A DNA stretch of 64,000 nt from Promethearchaeota archaeon Loki_b31. GTDB lineage: Archaea > Asgardarchaeota > Lokiarchaeia > Sigyniarchaeales > SOKP01. The position numbers and the translations under genes were made by a program. Below, piece after piece: positions 7,910 to 20,858 of the stretch. The notes below the pieces were generated by a model, which saw nothing but the letters and a program-made list of their open reading frames with translations, ran no database searches and had not been told where the DNA came from. The DNA is taken from the NCBI GenBank assembly GCA_005222975.1, contig NJBI01000002.1:1-64000 (forward strand). The letters run 5' to 3'. Within the stretch, counting starts at the first letter, position 1; every line of letters starts with the position of its first letter.

Positions 7910-8059
7910 ATTAAAACTGCCATTTCTTTATATTTTTTTTAAAATTAAAGAATACATTCGTATATTTATATACTAATACTCAGTATTTAAAAAAATAAGG
8001 TTGTGGTTTTTTATTTTGCTACATTTTTGAAAAATCTAGAGTTAAGAGCATAATTGATA

Positions 8060-9259
8060 TTAAAAAAGAAAATTGTGTTTATTAAAAATTGCGTCTAAAA
8101 TGCTTTTTAATTGCCGTGGATTTATCACCATGAAATAAAAATTGTAGTTTAATATGTTATCGGAAAAATTTCTATAATCGTTTAGGTTATTTTTTTTAGA
8201 GGCGTTTAAAATTCCAATGTTTCTAAGTGTCGTAATCAAATTTTTAAATTCTTCCATATCTTTTTCGTAATCAATTGATTCACACGAAACAAGATAAAGA
8301 TCTTTTAATTCCTTTATAGTTATGTAAAGATTTGAGTTTTTTAAGAAATGGTTCGATAAATTGTCTAAAAAGATTATTGTTAATAATTCTGCTTCAGAAA
8401 TATAAGAAAGCATGCTAAACTCGTCTGTAGCTTGAAGCGAAACGAACTGATTTCGAAGGATTTCAGAGATTTCTAGATTGTTTAAACTACCTTGCTGATT
8501 TAATACGGGATAAACCTCCCGTAATATTTCGATCCCTTTTCCTGGAACTGGCACATAATGCTCGAAAATTAAATCGGTTATAAATTCTACTAATTCTTTG
8601 TCAACTTCATGTAAAAAAGTTAAGGAGACTCTTTGTTTTAGAATGTCGAAAAGTTCCTTATATGAAAAATAATTTAATTTCTTCTTTAAGTCAAATTCAC
8701 TTATGAGATCTAATGTTGAGGGTTTTAAAGCCTGATTTACGGTAGCTAGAAAGCTAACGCTCGTATCTTTACCGTATTGTAAGAATTTTTTGAAGATTTC
8801 TGGCTCCAAATGCTCGATATTGTTAAAAATGAATACAAGGTTGTGATCAACTTTTCTACACGTTAGTTTAAATAGATTCCATAAATTTGATATATTCGAA
8901 TTTATAATGCTTTTAAAATTAAAATTAGTATTTTGATTTTGACCAATTTTAGTTAGTAAAGAAATAATAATTTCCTCTAGATTTTTTTCCCTACAATCAA
9001 CTTGGATGTTTAAAAATTCGGTGTTCAAGTTTGATAAATCTCTAATAACTTTATTTATAATAACTTGCTTTCCAATTCCTTGGATTCCTTGATATATGAT
9101 AGATAAACTAAAATCATCTGAAAATGAATCTTTTAGAATTGAAAATAGAGATTTCTCTTCTCTATTGCGATACAATATTTTGGGTGGGACATATTGTGCG
9201 TCAAATAAAGCTCGAGGACCTACATAACTACTATTATTAACCTTTGGTGTTGATATCAT
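8060..9259 (-). CDS. Divergent Orc1/Cdc6-like AAA+ protein (degenerate Walker motifs)
   Basis: FDAQYVPPKILYRNRE start, GIQGIGKQ P-loop, YSYKELFDILKQR, C-terminal wH-like region. Confidence 0.7.
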   Translation of the reverse strand: MISTPKVNNSSYVGPRALFDAQYVPPKILYRNREEKSLFSILKDSFSDDFSLSIIYQGIQGIGKQVIINKVIRDLSNLNTEFLNIQVDCREKNLEEIIISLLTKIGQNQNTNFNFKSIINSNISNLWNLFKLTCRKVDHNLVFIFNNIEHLEPEIFKKFLQYGKDTSVSFLATVNQALKPSTLDLISEFDLKKKLNYFSYKELFDILKQRVSLTFLHEVDKELVEFITDLIFEHYVPVPGKGIEILREVYPVLNQQGSLNNLEISEILRNQFVSLQATDEFSMLSYISEAELLTIIFLDNLSNHFLKNSNLYITIKELKDLYLVSCESIDYEKDMEEFKNLITTLRNIGILNASKKNNLNDYRNFSDNILNYNFYFMVINPRQLKSILDAIFNKHNFLF

Positions 9260-9421
9260 TTTTTTTTTTATTTTTTATTATTATTTTAAATTTTCATATA
9301 TAAACCCCTCGGGGGGATAGGTCATTGGAACTAAAAGTTTTTTAAAAATTAAAATATAAAACCAGTTATCCAATTAGAAAAAAAATTAGAACCCAAATTT
9401 AAAAATTTGATTCTTAATTTC

Positions 9422-10237
9422 TTACATCTTAACTTTTCTTACTTTTAATGAGTTCTTATCAATAATCTCCTTAAATCGCAATTTTCGAAGCTTTTTTGGA
9501 AAGTCTAAATTAATCTCATCATATACAAATCCATTGGAATCAATAGGACCTTCAACTACTCTTAACTTAGAAGGCGAAATATAATTTTTCACAAACGAAA
9601 TTATTTTACTTTGTCCAGGAAATTTTCTTTTTAATAAACTTCCATAGGTATTACAAGCTACTACAGGAATTCGATTTTCAAGCGCTCGCGCTTTTAAATA
9701 TATTTCCCAGTTTTTGATTCCCTCCGCTCTGATTTGTGTAGGGGAGAATAATATCTCCGCTCCATTTTCGGTTGCTAAACGAGGCGTTTCGAAAAAAGCA
9801 ATGTCAAAACAAATAAGAATTGCAAACTTCGATTCACCTAATTTAAAAATATTTAACACCCGTCCCGGTTCGAATTGCCCCTGTTCATATGAATAGAGAT
9901 GGATTTTATCTTGCCTTCCTATTTCTTCACCTTTTTTATTGAAATAGTAGCATGTTATAAATGGTTTTTTTTGATTATTCCTTTTTTCCCAAATTGCTCC
10001 AGATAAAAAGGAAATTTCATATTTATTTGCCAAATCTTTAATAAACTCATAATTTTCACCTCTTTCTTCTTGAATATTTAGAGGAATATCATTGAAAAAG
10101 GGAGTCCATCTTTCTGGTAAACAAATAATATCACAATTATTAAATTCATCTAATAAATTTTTCAATAGATATTCGATTTCAGAATAACATTTTTCGATAT
10201 CTTTATGAAATTTTGGTTGAATACATGCAACTTTCAT
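9422..10237 (-). CDS. Carbon-nitrogen hydrolase (nitrilase family), chimeric intact copy
   Basis: Catalytic triad motifs LPE, KIHL, ICFD; RALEN. Confidence 0.9.
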   Translation of the reverse strand: MKVACIQPKFHKDIEKCYSEIEYLLKNLLDEFNNCDIICLPERWTPFFNDIPLNIQEERGENYEFIKDLANKYEISFLSGAIWEKRNNQKKPFITCYYFNKKGEEIGRQDKIHLYSYEQGQFEPGRVLNIFKLGESKFAILICFDIAFFETPRLATENGAEILFSPTQIRAEGIKNWEIYLKARALENRIPVVACNTYGSLLKRKFPGQSKIISFVKNYISPSKLRVVEGPIDSNGFVYDEINLDFPKKLRKLRFKEIIDKNSLKVRKVKM

Positions 10238-10341
10238 TTTTTTTCTTATATTTTATAGTAGTATAATCATAAAAATATATAATTAAAAATACGATAAAAA
10301 GAATTTAAACTTTAACTGGTAAGAAAACCTAATTAAAATCT

Positions 10342-11853
10342 TTAAAGCCCAAAGAAAGAATCATAATCAATATTCATAATTTGAAGATCGGAATCTAAAT
10401 CCCGAGTTGAAAATAAATCTCTTCCATATTTTTGAAGAAATTGAGCCTGAAGATTTTCGTAGAAATCTCGTAAATCTGTTAAATTAAAAGAATAATAAAG
10501 ATTTAAAGCATGGTTAAAATATTCTAGAAACTTTCCTTCTAAAACAATCAATTCTGCAAATAAATCATACCTGATAATGATTACATTTCTAAATTTTGTA
10601 TATATAATTTGTTTAATAGCATTTTTTATCCATCCTTTCCATCGGGTTCCGACAATGAATAACATCATATCTTTTTTTTGATATTTAATCGTTTTATCTT
10701 TAATATTATCATTAGAAAGATCACTCGTATAATCAAACATGAACGCACTTAGTATTCTTAAGGAATTAATATCTAATCCAAGTCTATTCAAAAGTTTTGG
10801 ATTATTGACGAGCCTAAAAAATAAATATTTCATGTTATTTATGTTTAAAAGAAGTGAATCAACTTTATATTTTCTCCTCGTTGAAACTATAGTTTCTGAA
10901 TATATTTTCAGTTGTTTTGACATAAAAAACATTGTAATAATATACTGAAAAGCTAAATGTAAATATGTTCCCATAAGACCATATATTTCAACGCAATCGG
11001 GACATCCTCTGCCTCTTTGAATAGAATTATAACTTGCCTTCCACACATGGTCTGAAACCGCCATACATTGCCATCTGAGTTTCGTCTTGTTCGGAGGTTT
11101 CTTTCCCCTACAACGCATTGTCGCTTTAAATTCCTCACGAGTCATATCCAATTCCAGGTCATCCCTAGAATTTCCCAATAATACACAATCCTCATAAGAA
11201 ATTTCTCTACAACGAGGACAACCAGTACCTCCAGCAATGCTTCTATAATGTGCAAGCCATGTATGGCTTGAATTTATTGAACATCGCCACGTTAACTTTA
11301 CTCTGCTGGGAGACACATTTCTCCTATTGAGCATTGCGTTATCAAATTCCTCACGAGTCATATCAAATTCCAAATCATCTCTAGAATTTCCCAATGCGAC
11401 ACAATCTTCATAAGTAATTTCTCTGCAATGAGGACAACCATACCCTATTTTAATAAAACTATAGCCTTTTTCCCAAAAATGGCGTGGATTTATCGAACAT
11501 CGCCATCTTAGCATTACTCTGCTGGGAGACACATTTCCCCTATTGAGCATTGCGTTATCAAATTCCTCACGAGTCATATCAAATTCCAGGTCATCTCTAG
11601 AATTTCCCAATGCGACACAATCCTCATAAGTAATTTCTCTGCACTGAGGGCATCCATAACCTATTCTAATAAGGCTGTAACCTTTTTCCCAAAAATGGCG
11701 TGGATTTATCGAACATCGCCATCTTAGCTTTACCTGGCTTGGACTTATTGTTCCTCTGTTTCTTATAACCTCATCAAATTCCTCACGAGTCATATCAAAT
11801 TCCAGGTCATCTCTAGAGTTTCCCAATGCGATACAATCCTCATAACTAATCAC
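10342..11853 (-). CDS. Protein with four tandem zinc-ribbon repeats (DUF4379-like) and possible C-terminal nuclease domain
   Basis: 4x WxC..H.W...GxGCPxC; C-terminal E..VD..D pattern weakly PD-(D/E)xK-like. Confidence 0.7.
   Translation of the reverse strand: MISYEDCIALGNSRDDLEFDMTREEFDEVIRNRGTISPSQVKLRWRCSINPRHFWEKGYSLIRIGYGCPQCREITYEDCVALGNSRDDLEFDMTREEFDNAMLNRGNVSPSRVMLRWRCSINPRHFWEKGYSFIKIGYGCPHCREITYEDCVALGNSRDDLEFDMTREEFDNAMLNRRNVSPSRVKLTWRCSINSSHTWLAHYRSIAGGTGCPRCREISYEDCVLLGNSRDDLELDMTREEFKATMRCRGKKPPNKTKLRWQCMAVSDHVWKASYNSIQRGRGCPDCVEIYGLMGTYLHLAFQYIITMFFMSKQLKIYSETIVSTRRKYKVDSLLLNINNMKYLFFRLVNNPKLLNRLGLDINSLRILSAFMFDYTSDLSNDNIKDKTIKYQKKDMMLFIVGTRWKGWIKNAIKQIIYTKFRNVIIIRYDLFAELIVLEGKFLEYFNHALNLYYSFNLTDLRDFYENLQAQFLQKYGRDLFSTRDLDSDLQIMNIDYDSFFGL
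10987..11850 (-). repeat. Four 216-bp (72-aa) intragenic tandem repeats
   Basis: aaattcctcacgagtcatatc recurs at 11128, 11344, 11560 and 11776. Confidence 0.95.
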
Positions 11854-13745: not shown

Positions 13746-15134
13746 TTATTCACTTACATCATCCTCAATATTGATAATTAACCTCTCCCAAAGATCACAT
13801 ATTTCGGCAGTTTTTTTGGGAGCTATCCCAATATAATTTTCTGGATGTAAAATTAGCTTTATATGGTTCTCATTAAATTTCTTTAAATATGGTTTAATAG
13901 TTTTATCCTCGAAAATTAATTTTATAAGAGATTTACTTTCTTGATTAGATACTATAGTCAATTCTCGCACTTTTTCATATGCATTTGAATACCCTGATTG
14001 AGAAAGTAATATCTGTAATGGCTCAGCAATGATTTTATCTGCACTTTGTACGAAATTTTTCTTCATTTTATCTCTGTTTATCTGTAAATTTTTTGTGACA
14101 TTAATTGCTCGTTTTACAGAAGAATCGAATATAACAAATAATTCAGGTAAATACCTTGATGATAAAGAATTGGTTAAATCACCTTGATGTTCAATGATTT
14201 GATTTAAGTACAATGTTATCATTGTTGGCATAAATTTTTTCCAAGAACTTTTTATATTTTCAAAATTAATAGGATTTCTCTTCTGAGGCATTGTTGAAGA
14301 TCCTATTTGTTTTACATCAAAACTTTCATATACTTCTCCGATCTCTGTTCTCTGTAAATTTCTCATATCGTCAGCATAATTAGCCAGAACTCCCCAACCT
14401 AAAACAACTGTATGAATTAAGTTAATTAATGGTTCTGGAGGCAAAATTTGAGTAGAGATTTTTGATGATTTTAATCCCAAACTTTTTAATAAATCATATT
14501 CAAATTTTTCAGGATTGTCTAAAAATAAGGATAAAGCATTATAGGCCCCAATAGACCCACTAAATTTTCCTACTAAATTATTTATAGCATTTTTTACTTT
14601 TAAAATCATATTGCCCCATCTATTAACATATTGAGCAATAAAAAATCCAAAAGTTAATGGTTCTGCATGTTGTCCATGAGTTCTACCCATTTGAAGTGTG
14701 TTTTTTTCATTTCTAGCCATTTCAATTAATGAACGTTCTAACTTGACCATATCTGGCAAAATTATGTCATAAAACGCATTTTTATATCTTAAAATATTAG
14801 CGATATTAATAATATCATAAGAAGTCGCTGTTAAATGAATATAGAGCTTTGCTTTGGGGGATACTTTACTTTTTATAATTTCAACTAATGCTCGGATATC
14901 ATGCTTTAATTCTTCCTCCTTTTGATATACTTCTTTTGTATAGATTTTTTCACTAGCTTTTTCAACTTCATCTATTATATCTTTAGGACATATACCATAT
15001 TCCGCAAGTTTCCTTATAAGTGCAACTTCTACAATTGTTTTATATTTAATAAAAGCATCTTCAGTTAAGTAATCCTTTAATTCTTCTACTGAATATCTAA
15101 AATCGGTTGGAGAAAAACAATCAAATTTTTTCAT
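13746..15134 (-). CDS. purB: Adenylosuccinate lyase (island-borne)
   Basis: KHDI, HLTATSYDI, MGRTHGQHA and SSTMPQKRNP fumarase/lyase signature. Confidence 0.92.
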   Translation of the reverse strand: MKKFDCFSPTDFRYSVEELKDYLTEDAFIKYKTIVEVALIRKLAEYGICPKDIIDEVEKASEKIYTKEVYQKEEELKHDIRALVEIIKSKVSPKAKLYIHLTATSYDIINIANILRYKNAFYDIILPDMVKLERSLIEMARNEKNTLQMGRTHGQHAEPLTFGFFIAQYVNRWGNMILKVKNAINNLVGKFSGSIGAYNALSLFLDNPEKFEYDLLKSLGLKSSKISTQILPPEPLINLIHTVVLGWGVLANYADDMRNLQRTEIGEVYESFDVKQIGSSTMPQKRNPINFENIKSSWKKFMPTMITLYLNQIIEHQGDLTNSLSSRYLPELFVIFDSSVKRAINVTKNLQINRDKMKKNFVQSADKIIAEPLQILLSQSGYSNAYEKVRELTIVSNQESKSLIKLIFEDKTIKPYLKKFNENHIKLILHPENYIGIAPKKTAEICDLWERLIINIEDDVSE

Positions 15135-15739
15135 TGAATTTCATTTATAATTTTTGTTCTTATTTGTTTAAGTTTAGGATTATCAACATTTAATTCTAAT
15201 TCATCAACATTGATGAACCAAATTTTGCTTTTTGTCATAAACTTAAAGAAATTCTTAATTTTTTCATGGAAGTCCATAAAATATCCTGGGTCCGCATTCT
15301 TCTCATACTCACGACCTCTTTGTAATATTCTACGCTTTAATATTTCAATTGATAAATCTAAATATATTACTAAATATGGAATTCCTACTTTTCTTATAAT
15401 ATAATCATAAAGATTTTTAAAAATCTTCAATTCTTCATCTTTTAAATTTAATTCTGCAAATACTAAATCCTTTTCAATTGAAAAATCTGCTATTAAAAAT
15501 GAATTTTGGCAGTTTTTAATAGAGTCTTTCAATTGTGTAAAATGAATTAAAAGAAATGTAACTTCTGTCTCAAAATTTATACTTAAATCTCCACTATAAA
15601 ATCTTTTCAGGAAAGGATTTATATTATATTTCTCAAGTATTTTCCCGATTTTTAATTCACGAGAGAAATAGTTAGTTAAACTTGTTTTACCAGAACCTAT
15701 ACCTCCTTCGAAACTTATTAATTTCACCATAATAATCAA
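15131..15739 (-). CDS. Deoxynucleoside kinase (dGK-like)
   Basis: EGGIGSGKT P-loop, NPFLKRFY, ADFS..KD.VFA, lid RILQRGREYE. Confidence 0.85.
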   Translation of the reverse strand: MIIMVKLISFEGGIGSGKTSLTNYFSRELKIGKILEKYNINPFLKRFYSGDLSINFETEVTFLLIHFTQLKDSIKNCQNSFLIADFSIEKDLVFAELNLKDEELKIFKNLYDYIIRKVGIPYLVIYLDLSIEILKRRILQRGREYEKNADPGYFMDFHEKIKNFFKFMTKSKIWFINVDELELNVDNPKLKQIRTKIINEIQ

Positions 15740-15812: not shown

Positions 15813-16820
15813 TTATTTTTCTTTTTTTTTCTTTAATCCTTTAAATAGATTAATATTAATTAATGCCTTTACACTAGAATTTTTCTCTAAATGCATATTT
15901 TTCTTGACTCCTATTTTATATTTCGGTTTTTTTTGAGATTTATATAGTGCAATAAAAGCAATTAAAATCGCAAAAAAAGATAGAATGAGACTTATAATAC
16001 TTATATTACTTGTTTCTGTTTCATCAAATTTAATTGAACTTGATGAAAAAGTAGTGATTATGGTAAGAGCCGTTATTAAGATTGCTAGAACAGAAAAAAC
16101 TGTAGTACTAAGTGTGTCTATTCGTTTTGAGAACGCTTTTTGAAAGTCTTCAATATTTTTATCCATTTTATCTAATCGCTTTGGTATTCGTGCAAATAAA
16201 CCACTTTTTAATTTAGTATTATAATGGTAAATATCATATATTTCTGTAGGTCGATTTTTATAAGGCAGACTGACTCCTTCTTTATATTTAGTTGTTCTAA
16301 CAAAATCTATTAAAGCCAACTTTTCCCCTAGCTTAAATGTTACATTCTCATCGGATAAATTAAAGATAGGACAATGTAATGGACCGACCCAGCCAGGATC
16401 GACTTGTAATGCTCCAAGCCAGAGCAACCCTTTATATATCATACTTACTCGAAGATTCCACCTAGCTATTAAAAATGCTGGTAAATTAATTCTCTCGGCA
16501 GTACTAATAATTACACATTGGAATGGAGGGATATTGATTTCATTAGAAATTTTGTCAAGTTCATAAACTTCTTCATTTTGAGCATATTGCTTTCCTATTG
16601 TTAATAGATATCCCGCAGGTTTTAAATTTTCTTTATTAAAATGTTCTTTATCAATTAATTCACATTTTTCAACTAAACGCTCTATTTCATCACTTAAAAG
16701 TACTCCTGCTTCTCCATTTGAGTCCTCCTTTAAATAAATTGCATTTATCTTTTCAGTCTCTTTCGACTTTTCCCTATCAGATTTTCTTTGTGTTTTTTTA
16801 CTACTTGGTTTTTTACCTAT
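15813..16820 (-). CDS. dCTP deaminase/trimeric dUTPase-fold protein with two C-terminal TM helices (probable ATA start; ORF track starts at 16442)
   Basis: Frame open upstream of 16442: VLLSDEIERL, LKPAGYLLTIG, STAERINLP, RWNLRVS, VDPGWVG; two hydrophobic C-terminal segments; GGAGGTG 7 nt before ATA. Confidence 0.8.
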   Translation of the reverse strand: MGKKPSSKKTQRKSDREKSKETEKINAIYLKEDSNGEAGVLLSDEIERLVEKCELIDKEHFNKENLKPAGYLLTIGKQYAQNEEVYELDKISNEINIPPFQCVIISTAERINLPAFLIARWNLRVSMIYKGLLWLGALQVDPGWVGPLHCPIFNLSDENVTFKLGEKLALIDFVRTTKYKEGVSLPYKNRPTEIYDIYHYNTKLKSGLFARIPKRLDKMDKNIEDFQKAFSKRIDTLSTTVFSVLAILITALTIITTFSSSSIKFDETETSNISIISLILSFFAILIAFIALYKSQKKPKYKIGVKKNMHLEKNSSVKALININLFKGLKKKKEK

Positions 16821-17865
16821 ATTTCACCACCTCCACTATTTTTCTATCAATAAGTTCTTCGTCCATAGGACCTATACCAAGAAAATTTATCTTTGTCTCT
16901 AATCTTTCTTCTAAAAAATAAATGAATGACTTAGTTTCTTGTGATAAGTCTTCAAATGTCTCAACACCTTTATTTCTATAATCAAGATAATCAGTTCCCA
17001 TTAATGCTATTTCTGTGGGTCTATTTATAAAAACTGCTTTTTCGACTATGTCAATATCAAATCTCGCTACACGTCTTAGCCTTTTAGTTACAGATGTAAA
17101 TTCTTGAATTTTATATGGATAATTACTTTCGCTTCTTATTGTTTCCCAATCAATTTCATTTGGAAGAGGTCCAGAATTTCCGCCAACTCTAATGGGAAAT
17201 GTCCTTATTACCATTATAATATCGGAAACGATTAATGGACTAATACCTACTTCACTTATAAATGCGGCAGCTGTTGTATCTCTACTCGTTGTGTATGGAT
17301 AATATTTACTATGATAAACAGAAAGACCGAATCCCTGAGTTCCCTCGATTACAATTTTATTATTATCTGAATAATGCTCCATTACTTTTTTATGTGTACA
17401 AGCTAAATATTGTTGTAATTCAGGAACATCTTTCGCAAGTTTTATATCTTTAGTTCTTAAAGCTCGTTTTGCTACGGCAATCCCAGTTCCTGTGCATGTT
17501 GATCCTATACGATTATTCAAATTATTTCTAATTTCTTCTTGATCATATCCTTCGTCTATAATGACAGCATTGCGATCTATACCTAATCTATCTGGAAACA
17601 GTTTAAACAATTTAATTTCCTCTAATAATACTTCTAAGTCAATGAGACAACCAGCAGCAAGATATAATCTAGCAGATGGATTTACAACACCTGCAGGAAT
17701 TTGTCTAAGAACCACAGGTTCGTTATTAATATTTATTGTATGTCCGGAATTTGGTCCACCACATCTAATAGCGACATTATAATTATGATTGCGACATAAA
17801 TGTGCGGTTACCTTCCCTTTCCCTTCAGATCCAAATTGACCTCCTATGACAACAGTAATAGTCAA
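16813..17865 (-). CDS. Adenylosuccinate synthetase homolog, PurZ/PurZ0-like (putative 2-amino-deoxyadenylosuccinate synthetase)
   Basis: PurA fold (GPNSGHT, EGTQG, YPYTTS) but GSEGKG, FPIRVGGNSGP and EFTSVTKRLRR. Confidence 0.85.
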   Translation of the reverse strand: MTITVVIGGQFGSEGKGKVTAHLCRNHNYNVAIRCGGPNSGHTININNEPVVLRQIPAGVVNPSARLYLAAGCLIDLEVLLEEIKLFKLFPDRLGIDRNAVIIDEGYDQEEIRNNLNNRIGSTCTGTGIAVAKRALRTKDIKLAKDVPELQQYLACTHKKVMEHYSDNNKIVIEGTQGFGLSVYHSKYYPYTTSRDTTAAAFISEVGISPLIVSDIIMVIRTFPIRVGGNSGPLPNEIDWETIRSESNYPYKIQEFTSVTKRLRRVARFDIDIVEKAVFINRPTEIALMGTDYLDYRNKGVETFEDLSQETKSFIYFLEERLETKINFLGIGPMDEELIDRKIVEVVKYR

Positions 17866-17887: not shown

Positions 17888-19519
17888 TTATATTAATCTT
17901 GGAATTATTAAATGTTCTTCAACATCATTTCCTAAAGCTTCATATTCCTCAGCAAGATAAAAATAACCAACAAGAGCAGAAGTAAAAGCATCGAGTTCAT
18001 CGTGAGTAATTTTTTCATTTTTTGAAATAAATTTTATTCCTAAATTCTTTAATTCTATTTCTAATTCTTTTAAATCAACTTTTTTTCTTGGTATGCATAA
18101 AATATCTTGAGCGGCACCAGGATAACTTTCTATTACTTTAAAACCTTTTTCACGAAATATACGAGATAATTTAATCCCCCTTAGAGTTAATTTTTGCATG
18201 CTTTTAATGAGACTTGGATATACATTTATACCTCTACTCTTAAGAATTCTTTCACATTCGCGTGTAATTCCAAATTTTCTGCATTTACAAGAGTCATCTG
18301 CACAACATCTCCCTTTAGGTAAACCTAATGGAGAATCTATAGATATAATAGTTGGCTTTGCATTTATTGTTTTAGAAATAATATCATCATCATTTTCTAA
18401 AGGTGATAAATATGCCTCTTTATCTTTAAGAATACAAAATCCAGAACTTCTATTTTGAGAACCTGTTAGGTCTATTCCAACAGACACGCATGAATTATTA
18501 TGTTTTTTAATCTTTTTAATCATATTCTCTAAATTAATATTAACTCTTTCAATTTTCTTTGGATTTATACAAAATAAGAGTTCATTATTTAAATAAACCT
18601 CAATTATACCGTTTGGTCTATTTTGTGTAATAATTTTTGGAATAAAATGCTCTGATTTCTTTTTTAAATTCTCTTTTTCTTTTCTTATGATTTCTTTAAA
18701 ATTTTTGGTATGAGGTTGTTGAATTAATTCACCTAAATAATATGAAATTGTCTCTTTTTCATCTCTAATTAATTTAGATTGAATTTGAGATAATTTTTTT
18801 AAAAAACAAAGATCCATAATGTATTTTAAATTAATAATATCATAGATATTATATAAAACCAAGTTCTCTAAAGCTTTATTATTACCTCTTAAAAATTTAT
18901 TCCAAAAAGAGACTGCTTCTCTGCCATTTACTTCTTGTAGATTATCTGGTCTTTTAATATTTAATTTTTTTTCAATTTTTTTTAAAGGTCCTTTTAATCC
19001 TAGACTCCTTAAAAGATATCTTAAATCTATATGTAATGGAGGAAGTCTAATTTCAGGAAGCTCCTTTTTTATAAAGGGAATATCAAATAATTTACCATTA
19101 AAAGTAATAATAATTTCATAATCTTTGATATAATCAATAAATTCTTCTAAATTACTATCTTTTATAAAAATCTTAACCTCTTTTCCATTATAAGTACCAA
19201 TTACGGTGATTTTGTCATAATATAAAGATAATCCTGTCGTTTCAATATCCAAAAATATCGTCTTATCGATGAAATCTTTGTAAACTCTCCAATATTCTTT
19301 CTTTGGTAAGTATTTAACAAAATATGATATAAGATTTCCATAGAATTCTCTCTCTATTTTGTCTAAGTATTCATTAATAAGTTCTCTCTTGTTTTTACTT
19401 AATCCAAATATTTTTGATTTTCTTCTAAAGATTTCCCAGGTCAAAATGCCCATATTCCATAAATGTTCCTCTGTTTTTTCTCCAATTCCCGGAACACAAA
19501 TAAAAGTACTTTTCATCAT
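17888..19519 (-). CDS. YprB-like RNase H-fold 3'-5' exonuclease fused to DUF429 nuclease domain
   Basis: HhH VPGIG; LDIETTG, TFNGKLFD and YNIYD Exo motifs; then GIDL, IDSPLGLP, IESYP, HDELDA. Confidence 0.85.
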   Translation of the reverse strand: MMKSTFICVPGIGEKTEEHLWNMGILTWEIFRRKSKIFGLSKNKRELINEYLDKIEREFYGNLISYFVKYLPKKEYWRVYKDFIDKTIFLDIETTGLSLYYDKITVIGTYNGKEVKIFIKDSNLEEFIDYIKDYEIIITFNGKLFDIPFIKKELPEIRLPPLHIDLRYLLRSLGLKGPLKKIEKKLNIKRPDNLQEVNGREAVSFWNKFLRGNNKALENLVLYNIYDIINLKYIMDLCFLKKLSQIQSKLIRDEKETISYYLGELIQQPHTKNFKEIIRKEKENLKKKSEHFIPKIITQNRPNGIIEVYLNNELLFCINPKKIERVNINLENMIKKIKKHNNSCVSVGIDLTGSQNRSSGFCILKDKEAYLSPLENDDDIISKTINAKPTIISIDSPLGLPKGRCCADDSCKCRKFGITRECERILKSRGINVYPSLIKSMQKLTLRGIKLSRIFREKGFKVIESYPGAAQDILCIPRKKVDLKELEIELKNLGIKFISKNEKITHDELDAFTSALVGYFYLAEEYEALGNDVEEHLIIPRLI

Positions 19520-20378: not shown

Positions 20379-20858
20379 TTATACCAAAAGATTCATTGTA
20401 ACCCAAAAGAATTTATTGAACATGTCAAAGCAAATTAAAATTGCAAAATAAATTTTATTAAAGGGAAATAACACTAACTCTTTTCCTGGCTCAAAATTTT
20501 GTCTTTCATAAGAGTATAAATGGATTTTATCTTGTCTACCAATCTCTTCTCCGTCTTTATCAAAATAATAACTAGTAATTCTCGGTTTGATAGAATTTTT
20601 CCTTCTTTCCCAAATAGCTCCTGAGATTATACTTATACCGTACTCTTTTGCTAGATTTTTAATAAAGTTGTAATTATTTCCTCTTTCATTTTGTAAATTT
20701 AGTTCTTTTCCGTTTGTTAAATTTACCCACCTTTCTGGTAGGCATACGATGTCGCAGCTATCAAATTCTTTAATTAATTTTTTTAATATTTCTTCTACTT
20801 CAAAATAGCATTTATCTCTTTCTTGGAAAACTTCTGGTTGAATACACGCAATTCGCAT
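20379..20858 (-). pseudogene. Truncated 5' half of the original nitrilase gene
   Basis: Colinear with 9422-10237 up to ICFD, then an unrelated 14-aa tail; directly follows the HAD gene. Confidence 0.8.

What the first reader, a model, noticed from the sequence alone, without database searches (positions are those of the whole stretch)
15813..16820. dCTP-deaminase-fold protein without the deaminase Glu, fused to two TM helices
The real ORF is ~335 aa, not 209: the frame upstream of 16442 encodes the N-terminal half of the Dcd fold. The RSS motif reads RVS and the catalytic Glu after DPG..G is replaced (DPGWVGPLHCPIFN), so deamination is unlikely, while the dUTPase-type Asp remains. A short helical linker and two TM helices follow. 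A ligand-binding domain plus 2TM is a common effector layout in nucleotide-signalling defence systems. It could be the receptor for a dZ nucleotide, or a membrane-bound dNTP pyrophosphatase supplying dGMP (inference).
Basis: partly seen in the sequence, partly recalled or inferred. Interest (0 to 1): 0.72.

Follow-up and report, generated by a model that had tools for sequence, protein, structure and literature searches.

The report
Membrane-anchored Dcd-fold partner of PurZ-like enzyme
This Asgard-archaeal gene encodes a membrane-anchored protein with the dCTP-deaminase/dUTPase fold that cannot deaminate. Across bacteria and archaea its family sits almost always directly behind a cellular relative of the phage enzyme that starts 2-aminoadenine (Z) nucleotide synthesis, which points to an undescribed nucleotide-conversion cassette, probably used in conflicts with viruses.

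Summary
The minus-strand frame is open from 16823 to the stop at 15813-15815 and encodes 335 aa: a Lys-rich N-terminal extension, a DCD/dUTPase-fold core, a conserved flap, a helical stalk and two TM helices. The deaminase Glu is Pro151, RSS reads RVS, and the motif III Asp (D141) is kept. There is no ATG/GTG/TTG upstream of 16442. The likely start is ATA at 16820-16818, where relatives have ATG.

This is not a one-off. It belongs to a family with 387 representative clusters at E<=1e-30, all Glu-less and nearly all with 1-3 TM helices. The family was not found in the viral, phage or plasmid collections at comparable similarity.

In 59 of 61 well-flanked genomic loci the gene lies next to a PurZ-like synthetase (Ser in place of the PurA Asp13). 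Both sit in a modular cassette with an exonuclease, P-loop kinases and a deoxynucleoside kinase. The closest solved relatives are archaeal DCD-type dUTPases.

Function is unresolved between two readings:
- A membrane-tethered purine dNTP pyrophosphatase that feeds PurZ-like. I prefer this one, at about 0.4, by analogy with phage DutZ.
- A nucleotide-gated membrane effector, at about 0.3.

No paper on the family was found. This scan has met the same cassette before on other genomes.

The parts
15813..16820 (-). Whole gene: 335 codons plus TAA stop (15815-15813). The probable start is the non-canonical ATA at 16820-16818.
   Evidence: (the collection holds the same 335-aa product, P0002)
16710..16820 (-). 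Lys-rich N-terminal extension (residues 1-37). Relatives carry a comparable extension, often with a C-P-E-x-D motif; here it reads L-K-E-D-S.
   Evidence: AlphaFold2 helix 7-28 at moderate confidence
16694..16717 (-). Out-of-frame ATG behind AAGGAGG (16730-16724) opening a 7-codon mini-ORF. One more G after the ATG, as in the 71%-identical relative P0003 whose product starts M-G-E-P-G-V, would put it in frame.
   Evidence: inference about the missing G
16287..16709 (-). DCD/dUTPase-fold core (residues 38-178). Majority-residue conservation is 0.72 across the family.
   Evidence: (pLDDT mostly above 90)
16443..16451 (-). Motif II reads R124-V125-S126, where Dcd and dUTPases have R-S-S or R-S-T.
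16359..16400 (-). Motif III, D141-P-G-W-V-G-P-L-H-C-P-I-F-N. The Asp is kept. Cys150-Pro151 stand where Dcd has Leu-Glu (catalytic Glu) and archaeal dUTPase P45 has Leu-Met.
16197..16286 (-). Conserved C-terminal flap (residues 179-208) with Tyr and basic residues; conservation 0.60. It leads directly into the stalk.
16122..16196 (-). Basic helical stalk (residues 209-233), continuous with TM1 in the model.
16047..16121 (-). TM helix 1 (residues 234-258).
15939..16004 (-). TM helix 2 (residues 273-294).
15816..15938 (-). Lys-rich C-terminal tail (14 K+R), predicted cytoplasmic.
16813..17865 (-). Upstream partner gene: PurZ-like adenylosuccinate-synthetase homolog (G-S-E-G-K-G-K, Ser at the PurA Asp13 position). 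Its stop overlaps the start region of the target gene.
17888..19519 (-). First cassette gene: DEDDy-type exonuclease (RNase_H_2) fused to a DUF429-like domain.
15131..15739 (-). Downstream cassette gene: deoxynucleoside kinase (dNK).
13746..15134 (-). Last gene: a dedicated extra adenylosuccinate lyase (PurB). A housekeeping PurB lies on another contig.

Best explanation
The gene encodes the membrane-anchored, non-deaminating DCD/dUTPase-fold partner of a cellular PurZ-like synthetase.

Shown:
- It belongs to a large, strongly conserved family whose catalytic Glu is always replaced (Cys-Pro or Ile-Pro).
- The C-terminus of the family always carries a helical stalk and 1-3 TM helices.
- The gene lies next to a PurZ-like gene in about 97% of well-flanked loci, within a modular cassette of exonuclease, P-loop kinase, PurZ-like, this protein, and dNK or another small protein.

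Inferred mechanism (my preferred reading): the domain forms the usual trimer on the cytoplasmic face of the membrane and hydrolyses a purine dNTP (dGTP, perhaps also dATP) to the monophosphate. That hands dGMP to PurZ-like. The cassette's own PurB, or elsewhere the host's, then yields 2-amino-dAMP. The net effect is to drain and convert the G/A deoxynucleotide pool. This is the job the soluble dUTPase-fold enzyme DutZ does for PurZ0 in Z-genome phages. Here it is used by a horizontally acquired cellular cassette, most likely against invading DNA.

The membrane tether would then localise or regulate the enzyme. What it responds to is unknown.
For: Fold and nearest relatives: the closest solved structures are real dUTPases, T. 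pacificus 8y1w with dUMP and P45 9ln0 (profile E 3e-26, TM-score 0.84, 33% identity). P45 also lacks the Glu (T-L-M-L).

Retained residues: motif III Asp and motif II Arg are invariant or nearly so, and a conserved Tyr/Arg-rich flap follows. Conservation of the core (0.72) exceeds that of the TM part (0.43-0.50).

Partnership:
- PurZ-like lies within 4 kb in 59 of 61 DCD-anchored loci.
- The DCD-like gene is present in 43 of 53 PurZ-anchored loci.
- The genes often overlap.
- Their divergences are correlated, Mantel r 0.53, with 0 of 999 permutations reaching it.
- A bare two-gene core sits on a Sinorhizobium medicae conjugative plasmid.

Precedent: all 98 PurZ0 phage genomes carry dutZ, and DutZ hydrolyses dATP and dGTP to the monophosphates (PMC12884076).

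Parallel: a Glu-less, single-TM DCD-like protein on a S. fredii plasmid sits beside thymidylate synthase genes, another partner that uses a dNMP.

Dedicated PurB in the window, with housekeeping PurA, PurB and a canonical five-motif Dut elsewhere in the genome.

Accessory status: not found in 16 same-genus or 40 same-family genomes searched.
Against: - Several residues that bind the triphosphate and Mg2+ in Dcd and dUTPases are not kept. The motif I Asp is variable (Leu72 here), the motif II serines are Val plus a variable residue, and the motif IV Arg/Gln are lost. Hydrolysis is therefore not assured, and the ligand could be a monophosphate.
- A metabolic pyrophosphatase has no obvious need for a membrane anchor, yet the anchor is universal in the family.
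- In 7 of the 53 PurZ-anchored loci scored (8 loci in the ORF clustering) the position is taken by an unrelated protein of about 750 aa with a Cdc48-like AAA+ module and no DCD domain. That looks more like exchange of an output module than of an essential pathway enzyme.
- No activity was measured.
- The substrate of the PurZ-like enzyme is itself inferred. Its best solved match is archaeal PurA 2d7u at 221 bits, against PurZ0 7vf6 at 152 bits.
Confidence: 0.4

Rival explanations
1. Nucleotide-gated membrane effector. The DCD-fold trimer has become a receptor for the product of the PurZ-like pathway (succino-amino-dAMP, dZMP or dZTP). Ligand binding orders the C-terminal flap, which runs straight into the stalk and TM helices. 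The membrane is then breached or depolarised, which aborts infection.
For: - TM segments are universal in the family.
- Phosphate/Mg-binding motifs are lost while the nucleoside-binding motif III is kept, as expected of an enzyme turned sensor or of a monophosphate ligand.
- The flap, stalk and TM1 are contiguous.
- Two-gene 'synthase plus TM protein' cores sit on a conjugative plasmid next to toxin-antitoxin genes and beside an MmeI restriction system.
- The position is taken by an AAA+ protein in 7 of 53 PurZ-anchored loci scored.
- Distribution is patchy and accessory.
Against: - Homology to PycTM is not supported: 0 of 30 members hit PF18967.
- The domain was never found fused to another effector type, unlike typical sensor domains.
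- The number and topology of TM helices vary (1, 2 or 3; C-terminus in or out), which suits an anchor better than a defined pore.
- The core is as conserved as an enzyme.
- No toxicity data exist.
Confidence: 0.3
2. Self-protection or sanitising enzyme. It hydrolyses dZTP, or another product of the cassette, to keep the non-canonical nucleotide out of the host's own DNA. Alternatively it acts as a regulatory, G-protein-like dUTPase-fold switch.
For: - The fold is that of nucleotide-pool sanitisers.
- It is coupled tightly, apparently one-to-one, with PurZ-like.
- Staphylococcal phage dUTPases are a precedent for signalling by this fold (PDB 3zf3, title listed).
Against: - Hydrolysing the pathway's end product next to its synthase would be a futile cycle.
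- The reading does not explain the membrane anchor.
- Cassettes with the AAA+ protein have no such enzyme.
Confidence: 0.12
3. In this particular genome the gene is silent or damaged, or the assembly is wrong at its 5' end. There is no canonical start codon, and a well-placed ATG lies out of frame.
For: - There is no ATG/GTG/TTG in frame upstream of 16442.
- AAGGAGG plus ATG at 16717 opens only 7 codons.
- The closest relative starts M-G-E-P-G-V at that spot.
- The genome is a 99-contig draft, 92% complete.
Against: - All 335 codons are open. About 35 extra stop-free codons in 30% G+C DNA have roughly 5% chance odds, by my estimate.
- ATA sits behind GGAGGTG at the stop of the upstream gene, exactly where relatives have ATG or TTG.
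- All family-invariant residues are intact.
- The extension resembles those of relatives, including an Asgard (Hodarchaeota) homolog.
Confidence: 0.1
4. An ordinary housekeeping dCTP deaminase or dUTPase.
For: Some sources annotate family members as 'deoxycytidine triphosphate deaminase'. It matches Pfam DCD.
Against: - The catalytic Glu is absent throughout the family.
- TIGR02274 scores 50.9 bits against a cut-off of 92.8.
- The genome has a canonical five-motif Dut elsewhere.
- The gene was not found in 16 same-genus genomes.
- It has TM helices.
Confidence: 0.02

Closest known systems
Archaeal and rudiviral DCD-type dUTPases (Thermococcus pacificus dUTPase 8y1w, 'P45' 9ln0/9ln3, SIRV dUTPase)
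   Same: They share the fold and are the closest by sequence: profile E 3e-26, 29-33% identity, Foldseek TM-score 0.82-0.84. They share the P-A-G-Y, N-L-R and V-D-P-G-W/F-x-G motifs. P45 also lacks the deaminase Glu.
   Different: - Those enzymes are soluble proteins of about 155 aa.
- They keep the motif I Asp, the motif II R-S-S/T and the motif IV Arg/Gln.
- The present family has lost these. It has its own invariant residues: R120, W121, N122, Y129, Q139, P151 and D172 are invariant, and C150 nearly so.
- It also adds an N-terminal extension, a stalk and TM helices.
DutZ of PurZ0-type Z-genome phages (PMC12884076)
   Same: DutZ is a dUTPase-superfamily protein genetically tied to a PurZ-type synthetase. 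DutZ hydrolyses dATP and dGTP to dNMPs and so feeds and clears the way for Z synthesis. This is the functional model for the present protein.
   Different: - DutZ is a soluble Dut-type (PF00692) enzyme, described as a homolog of E. coli Dut, and is often fused to DmtZ.
- It is phage-encoded.
- The present family is of the DCD type (PF22769), membrane-anchored and cellular. It was not found in 2.9 million viral contigs or in isolated phages beyond rudivirus dUTPases.
- No activity is known for it.
dCTP deaminase Dcd and bifunctional Dcd-Dut (E. coli 1xs1, M. jannaschii 1ogh, B. halodurans 4xjc)
   Same: Same fold and the Pfam family under which it is annotated.
   Different: The catalytic Glu is Pro, the serines of R-S-S and the following Arg are replaced, and it scores far below the equivalog cut-off. 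It is membrane-bound.
TM effectors of nucleotide-signalling defence systems (Pycsar PycTM, CBASS 2TM/4TM effectors)
   Same: The architecture is a 'nucleotide-binding domain plus a few TM helices' encoded next to a nucleotide-making enzyme, on accessory DNA.
   Different: - There is no supported homology.
- The partner is a PurA-family synthetase, not a cyclase.
- The binding domain is an enzyme fold with high conservation.
- No swap of effector domains on the same sensor was found.
Anti-phage dNTP-depletion systems (kinase-fused dCTP deaminase 'dCTPase', dGTPase; PADLOC)
   Same: The theme is the same: manipulating the deoxynucleotide pool. The cassette's P-loop kinases of about 190 aa match the kinase part of the PADLOC dCTPase model (E 1e-17).
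   Different: The present protein itself does not match that model. From my own knowledge, the defence deaminase has the zinc cytidine-deaminase fold, not the DCD fold.

Membership tests
dCTP deaminase (Dcd, TIGR02274) | DCD/dUTPase beta-barrel fold | tested here: met
   Pfam PF22769 39.7 bits against a cut-off of 27. Foldseek hits to Dcd structures at E about 1e-9.
dCTP deaminase (Dcd, TIGR02274) | Catalytic Glu in D-P-G-x-x-G-x-x-T-L-E (E138 in E. coli) | tested here: not met
   Pro151 stands at that position. The pair is Cys-Pro or Ile-Pro in almost all of the ~117 members scored.
dCTP deaminase (Dcd, TIGR02274) | R-S-S motif and the Arg four residues later | tested here: not met
   Reads R-V-S-M-I-Y. 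Val125 and Tyr129 are invariant in the family.
dCTP deaminase (Dcd, TIGR02274) | Score at or above the curated equivalog cut-off | tested here: not met
   50.9 bits against 92.8.
Archaeal DCD-type dUTPase (P45 / 8y1w type) | Closest sequence and structure relationship | tested here: met
   Profile E 3e-26, TM-score 0.84, 33% identity.
Archaeal DCD-type dUTPase (P45 / 8y1w type) | Motif I Asp, motif II Ser-Ser/Thr, motif IV Arg and Gln | tested here: not met
   Leu72 here (variable across the family), Val125, and Lys/Leu at the motif IV positions.
Archaeal DCD-type dUTPase (P45 / 8y1w type) | Motif III Asp (general base) | tested here: met
   D141 is invariant.
Archaeal DCD-type dUTPase (P45 / 8y1w type) | dUTP pyrophosphatase activity | not testable with these tools
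   Needs an enzyme assay.
DutZ (dUTPase-fold dATP/dGTP pyrophosphatase of PurZ0 phages) | Genetic linkage to a PurZ-type synthetase | tested here: met
   Adjacent in the window, and in 59 of 61 loci.
DutZ (dUTPase-fold dATP/dGTP pyrophosphatase of PurZ0 phages) | Dut-type (PF00692) sequence family | tested here: not met
   TIGR00576 scores only 19.6 bits against a cut-off of 102.55. PF00692 is matched by 2 of 30 members.
DutZ (dUTPase-fold dATP/dGTP pyrophosphatase of PurZ0 phages) | Phage-encoded | tested here: not met
   No relative in IMG/VR contigs. Among isolated phages only rudivirus dUTPases match.
DutZ (dUTPase-fold dATP/dGTP pyrophosphatase of PurZ0 phages) | Hydrolysis of dATP and dGTP to dNMP | not testable with these tools
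   Needs an enzyme assay.
Pycsar PycTM-type TM effector | Homology of the TM module to PycTM (PF18967, PADLOC PycTM) | tested here: not met
   A single weak PADLOC hit, E 2e-4. None of 30 family members matches PF18967 at E<=0.01, and the TM region gives scattered unrelated membrane hits. One relative, P0020, carries a precomputed PF18967 label.
Pycsar PycTM-type TM effector | Partner pyrimidine cyclase | tested here: not met
   The partner is a PurA-family synthetase.
Anti-phage dCTP deaminase defence (PADLOC dCTPase) | Match to the system's protein model | tested here: not met
   No hit for this protein. Only the cassette's kinases hit the kinase part of the model.

The most novel reading that the evidence does not exclude
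The DCD-fold/TM protein is a trimeric, nucleotide-gated membrane effector. It senses a 2-aminoadenine-type or succino-deoxynucleotide made by the neighbouring cellular PurZ-like enzyme, so archaea and bacteria would use a Z-pathway intermediate as an immune second messenger. This signalling chemistry and receptor class would be unrelated to cyclic-nucleotide systems.
Probability: 0.27. Interest if true: 0.9.

Novelty: new variant of a known kind. Interest (0 to 1): 0.66.

Why it matters
PurZ and its dUTPase-fold helper are known only from phages that replace adenine by 2-aminoadenine. Here a helper of the same fold superfamily has become a membrane protein. It is locked to a PurZ-like enzyme in cellular genomes of many bacterial and archaeal phyla, including an Asgard archaeon that acquired it on an island.

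Either reading would be new biology: a membrane-tethered dNTP converter or a nucleotide-gated effector. Cells would be making, or at least handling, Z-type deoxynucleotides, probably to fight invading DNA.

The protein is small and its soluble part is easy to express. Its substrates are commercially available, so the question is directly testable.

Tried and rejected
1. Housekeeping Dcd or Dut. Rejected: the Glu is missing, the score is below the cut-off, a canonical Dut lies elsewhere, and congeners lack the gene.
2. Homology of the TM part to Pycsar PycTM. A weak PADLOC hit was not reproduced in the family.
3. Phage or plasmid origin. There is no relative in viral contigs. Isolated phages give only rudivirus dUTPases. 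Plasmids give only distant relatives, one of them a PurZ-like plus DCD-like pair.
4. Fused forms. None of 588 aa or longer was found (weak evidence). Short TM-less forms are few (14) and look like fragments.
5. A DCD domain hidden in the alternative AAA+ partner. hhalign finds none.
6. Identity of the ~262-aa alternative downstream gene (D-P-D-N-G motif). There is no Pfam, PDB, PADLOC or Atlas name.
7. A DatZ-like HD neighbour as a general cassette member. It occurs only in two rhizobial loci, with a weak YfbR-like match.
8. Literature. No paper on the family or the cellular cassette came up. The search for '9LN0' returned only unrelated material.
I therefore could not read the DNA of the two closest relatives (P0003, P0004) to settle the start-codon history.
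Full report
WHAT IS THERE

On the minus strand the frame is open from 16823 to the stop at 15813-15815. A mechanical ORF list gives only 209 aa from the ATG at 16442, because there is no ATG, GTG or TTG in frame upstream. The upstream 126 codons are nevertheless coding. Pfam DCD (PF22769) matches residues 42-175 over almost the whole profile, E 6.8e-10, above the gathering score. The protein collection holds the same 335-aa product (P0002).

The frame opens three codons before the stop of the upstream PurZ-like gene. Its second codon is ATA (16820-16818), preceded by GGAGGTG. In relatives the N-terminal extension starts with ATG or TTG one to three codons after the equivalent in-frame stop, so ATA stands where they have a start codon. 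Relatives at 46-50% identity, including a Hodarchaeota (Asgard) protein, have similar Lys-rich extensions of 40-50 residues.

A second oddity is an out-of-frame ATG at 16717 behind a perfect AAGGAGG. It opens only seven codons. The 71%-identical relative P0003 starts M-G-E-P-G-V at exactly this spot, so one missing G would explain the shift. I take the 335-codon reading with the ATA start as most likely and give about 0.1 to a silent gene or an assembly error.

ANATOMY

- AlphaFold2 on a 30-sequence alignment gives mean pLDDT 79.5. The core (residues 38-175) is mostly above 90. One long helix runs 207-260 and a second helix 270-297.
- Hydropathy peaks are 2.25 and 2.86 at residues 234-258 and 273-294.
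- Basic residues number 8 before TM1, 1 in the loop and 14 in the tail. This places both ends in the cytoplasm.
- Motif II reads R-V-S.
- Motif III reads D-P-G-W-V-G-P-L-H-C-P-I-F-N, with Pro151 in place of the Dcd catalytic Glu.

THE FAMILY

A word-indexed search gave 304 relatives at E<=0.001, of which the best 120 were listed. An exhaustive profile search gave 387 representative clusters (50% identity) at E<=1e-30 and 2548 at E<=1e-10.

All 120 listed relatives carry Q-V-D-P-G-[WYF]-x-G-x-L-x-C-P-[IL]-[YF]-N-L-S or a close variant, followed by hydrophobic helices. A second subfamily, L-V-D-P-G-F-x-G-x-L-x-I-P-x-H-N-L-T, has one TM helix followed by a coiled coil.

Among about 117 scored members, 43 have two TM segments by a crude threshold, 38 have three, 19 have one and 4 have none. 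Forms of 183 aa or less are few (14) and look like fragments. No long fused form was found.

Majority-residue conservation is 0.72 in the core, 0.60 in the flap that follows it, 0.41-0.50 in the stalk and TM helices, and 0.22 in the loop and tail.

RELATION TO KNOWN ENZYMES

The best solved relatives are the archaeal DCD-type dUTPases 9ln0 (P45) and 8y1w (T. pacificus, with dUMP): profile E 3e-26, Foldseek TM-score 0.83-0.84, 29-33% identity. They lie far ahead of Dcd-Dut 4xjc (E 4e-9) and E. coli Dcd (E 2e-3). P45 itself has T-L-M-L instead of T-L-E-L, so the missing Glu alone is what one expects of a dUTPase-type rather than a deaminase-type member.

Compared with P45 and the rudivirus SIRV dUTPase:
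- The family keeps the motif II Arg (R124) and the motif III Asp (D141).
- It has lost the motif I Asp (variable, Leu72 here), the motif II serines (Val125 invariant), the following Arg (Tyr129) and the motif IV Arg/Gln.
- It has invariant residues of its own: R120, W121, N122, Q139, N154, S156, D172, F173, T176, T177, S206 and L208.

It is thus a distinct family of the superfamily, not a member of Dcd (50.9 bits against a cut-off of 92.8) nor of the Dut family.

The genome has a canonical five-motif Dut on another contig.

CONTEXT, THE MOST INFORMATIVE RESULT

Seventy-nine loci in one-genome-per-species prokaryote genomes encode a relative. They are spread over Acidobacteriota, Dehalococcoidia, Alphaproteobacteria, Binatia, Halobacteriota, Methanophagales, Archaeoglobaceae, Thermoplasmatales and others.

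Clustering of the neighbouring ORFs and domain scans show a modular cassette:
1. A DEDDy exonuclease fused to DUF429, with a P-loop (AAA_18) kinase of about 190 aa fused or separate. Alternatively, an HhH-PHP-kinase protein of about 970 aa.
2. A PurA-family synthetase with G-S-E-G-K-G-K.
3. The DCD-TM protein.
4. A deoxynucleoside kinase or an unnamed ~262-aa protein.

With at least 3.5 kb of flank on both sides, 59 of 61 DCD-anchored loci have the PurZ-like gene within 4 kb. Of 53 PurZ-anchored loci, 43 have the DCD-like gene and 7 have instead a ~750-aa protein with a Cdc48-like AAA+ module. That protein has no DCD domain.

Divergence of the two partners is correlated across 39 loci (Mantel r 0.53, with 0 of 999 permutations reaching it). 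This shows co-inheritance; the loci are kin and not independent.

A bare two-gene core lies on a conjugative Sinorhizobium medicae plasmid between toxin-antitoxin genes. A Mesorhizobium copy lies beside an MmeI-type restriction enzyme. Several acidobacterial copies sit next to dnaA-dnaN-gyrB.

The cassette kinases match the kinase part of the PADLOC dCTPase defence model at E 1e-17. Neither the DCD-TM protein nor the PurZ-like protein matches any PADLOC model.

No relative was found in 2.9 million viral contigs.

THE WINDOW'S COPY

The window has exonuclease-DUF429, PurZ-like, DCD-2TM, dNK and an extra PurB, co-directional and tightly packed. Housekeeping PurA and PurB lie elsewhere in the genome at 27-29% identity. 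PurB accompanies the cassette in only two other loci.

The family was not found in 16 same-genus and 40 same-family genomes searched. Only three distant matches appeared in 200 genomes of the phylum.

The cassette lies between two nitrilase 5' halves that are 69% identical.

WHAT IT DOES

Published work supplies a direct model. In PurZ0-type Z-genome phages every genome has dutZ, a dUTPase-fold enzyme that hydrolyses dATP and dGTP to the monophosphates. It so feeds dGMP to PurZ0 and removes dATP. The same paper notes four archaeal PurZ-group sequences with Ser or Gly at the catalytic Asp position (PMC12884076; see also bioRxiv 10.1101/2025.10.22.683976).

A further parallel is a Glu-less, single-TM DCD-like protein on a S. 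fredii plasmid, which sits beside thymidylate synthase genes. Those are again partners that use a dNMP.

On this basis my preferred reading (about 0.4) is a membrane-tethered purine dNTP pyrophosphatase that supplies PurZ-like, within a cassette that converts or drains G/A deoxynucleotides in conflicts with invading DNA.

The points for it:
- Loss of the phosphate/Mg-binding motifs would suit a monophosphate ligand such as the PurZ product.
- The flap that closes over the nucleotide in this fold (established knowledge of Dcd and dUTPase structures) runs straight into the stalk and TM1.
- The position is occasionally taken by an AAA+ protein.

The points against it:
- The PycTM similarity is not supported.
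- The domain is never found on another effector.
- TM number and topology vary.

Lesser rivals are a sanitising or regulatory role (about 0.12) and a gene that is silent here (about 0.1). Which nucleotide the PurZ-like enzyme uses is itself inferred. Its best solved match is archaeal PurA 2d7u (221 bits), ahead of PurZ0 7vf6 (152 bits) and PurZ 6fm1 (137 bits).

NOVELTY

Six literature searches found no description of the family or of the cellular cassette. One paper notes adenylosuccinate-synthetase genes beside an ART-like family and AAA/NUDIX genes in bacteria (PMC12522546).

This scan has met the same cassette and the same membrane-anchored Dcd-fold protein several times on other genomes, with similar readings. 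Those are unchecked AI notes, not independent evidence. What I tested myself agrees with them.

I class the protein as a new variant of a known kind: a dUTPase-superfamily helper of a PurZ-type enzyme, with a new architecture, a new sequence family and a cellular setting.

Noticed in passing
window 16694-16730 (- strand): A perfect AAGGAGG followed 6 nt later by an ATG lies one base out of frame with the gene and opens a 7-codon mini-ORF. The closest relative starts its protein at exactly this position. This could be a decayed start, a homopolymer error or a small upstream ORF.
   Followed up: partly
window 9884-10230 and 20505-20851: Two nitrilase 5' halves, 69% identical in DNA and 60% in protein over 146 aa, bracket about 10.6 kb holding the cassette, an HNH/DUF4379 endonuclease gene and a 554-aa ORF without any family match. 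This is consistent with an inserted island.
   Followed up: partly
window 10342-11853 (- strand): The HNH/DUF4379 treble-clef endonuclease-like gene has paralogs on three other contigs of the genome (30-43% identity). It may be a mobile or homing element.
   Followed up: no
L107, L129, L134, L135, L140, L144, L150, L151 (about 7950-10650 in each): In these PurZ-like loci the place of the DCD-TM gene is taken by a ~750-aa protein with an unknown Trp-rich N-terminal region of about 450 aa and a Cdc48/IetA-like AAA+ module. It is often accompanied by an HhH-PHP-kinase protein of about 970 aa instead of the DEDDy-DUF429 exonuclease.
   Followed up: partly
L163 5857-6642 (Sinorhizobium fredii plasmid pSfreNXT3a): Another Glu-less DCD-like protein (V-F-A-V-F-N) with a coiled coil and one TM helix sits among two thymidylate synthase genes, a nucleotide kinase, an NTP pyrophosphohydrolase and an ImmA/IrrE-HTH pair. 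Membrane-anchored DCD-like proteins therefore pair with more than one kind of dNMP-using enzyme.
   Followed up: partly
L164 3956-6717 (Sinorhizobium medicae plasmid pMl5); also L141: A minimal PurZ-like plus DCD-1TM pair on a conjugative plasmid is transcribed divergently from a 200-aa HD-type protein with a weak YfbR/DatZ-like match (E 5e-4). The HD protein recurs only in a Mesorhizobium locus.
   Followed up: partly
L002 6260-6832, L010 4879-6918, L152 1927-4626: The cassette's AAA_18 P-loop kinases, free or fused to the nucleases, match the kinase part of the PADLOC model for the anti-phage dCTP deaminase (dCTPase), with E down to 1e-17.
   Followed up: no
L020, L047, L125, L146 and other acidobacterial loci: In several Acidobacteriota the cassette lies within a few kb of dnaA-dnaN-gyrB. 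It is preceded by a divergently transcribed ~130-aa protein with a faint HTH match, present in 30 loci.
   Followed up: no
L060, L063, L066, L075, L100 (Dehalococcoidia): These genomes carry a second, longer DCD-TM paralog (370-496 aa by my ORF call, 3-4 TM helices) on the opposite strand, right next to the cassette's own copy.
   Followed up: no
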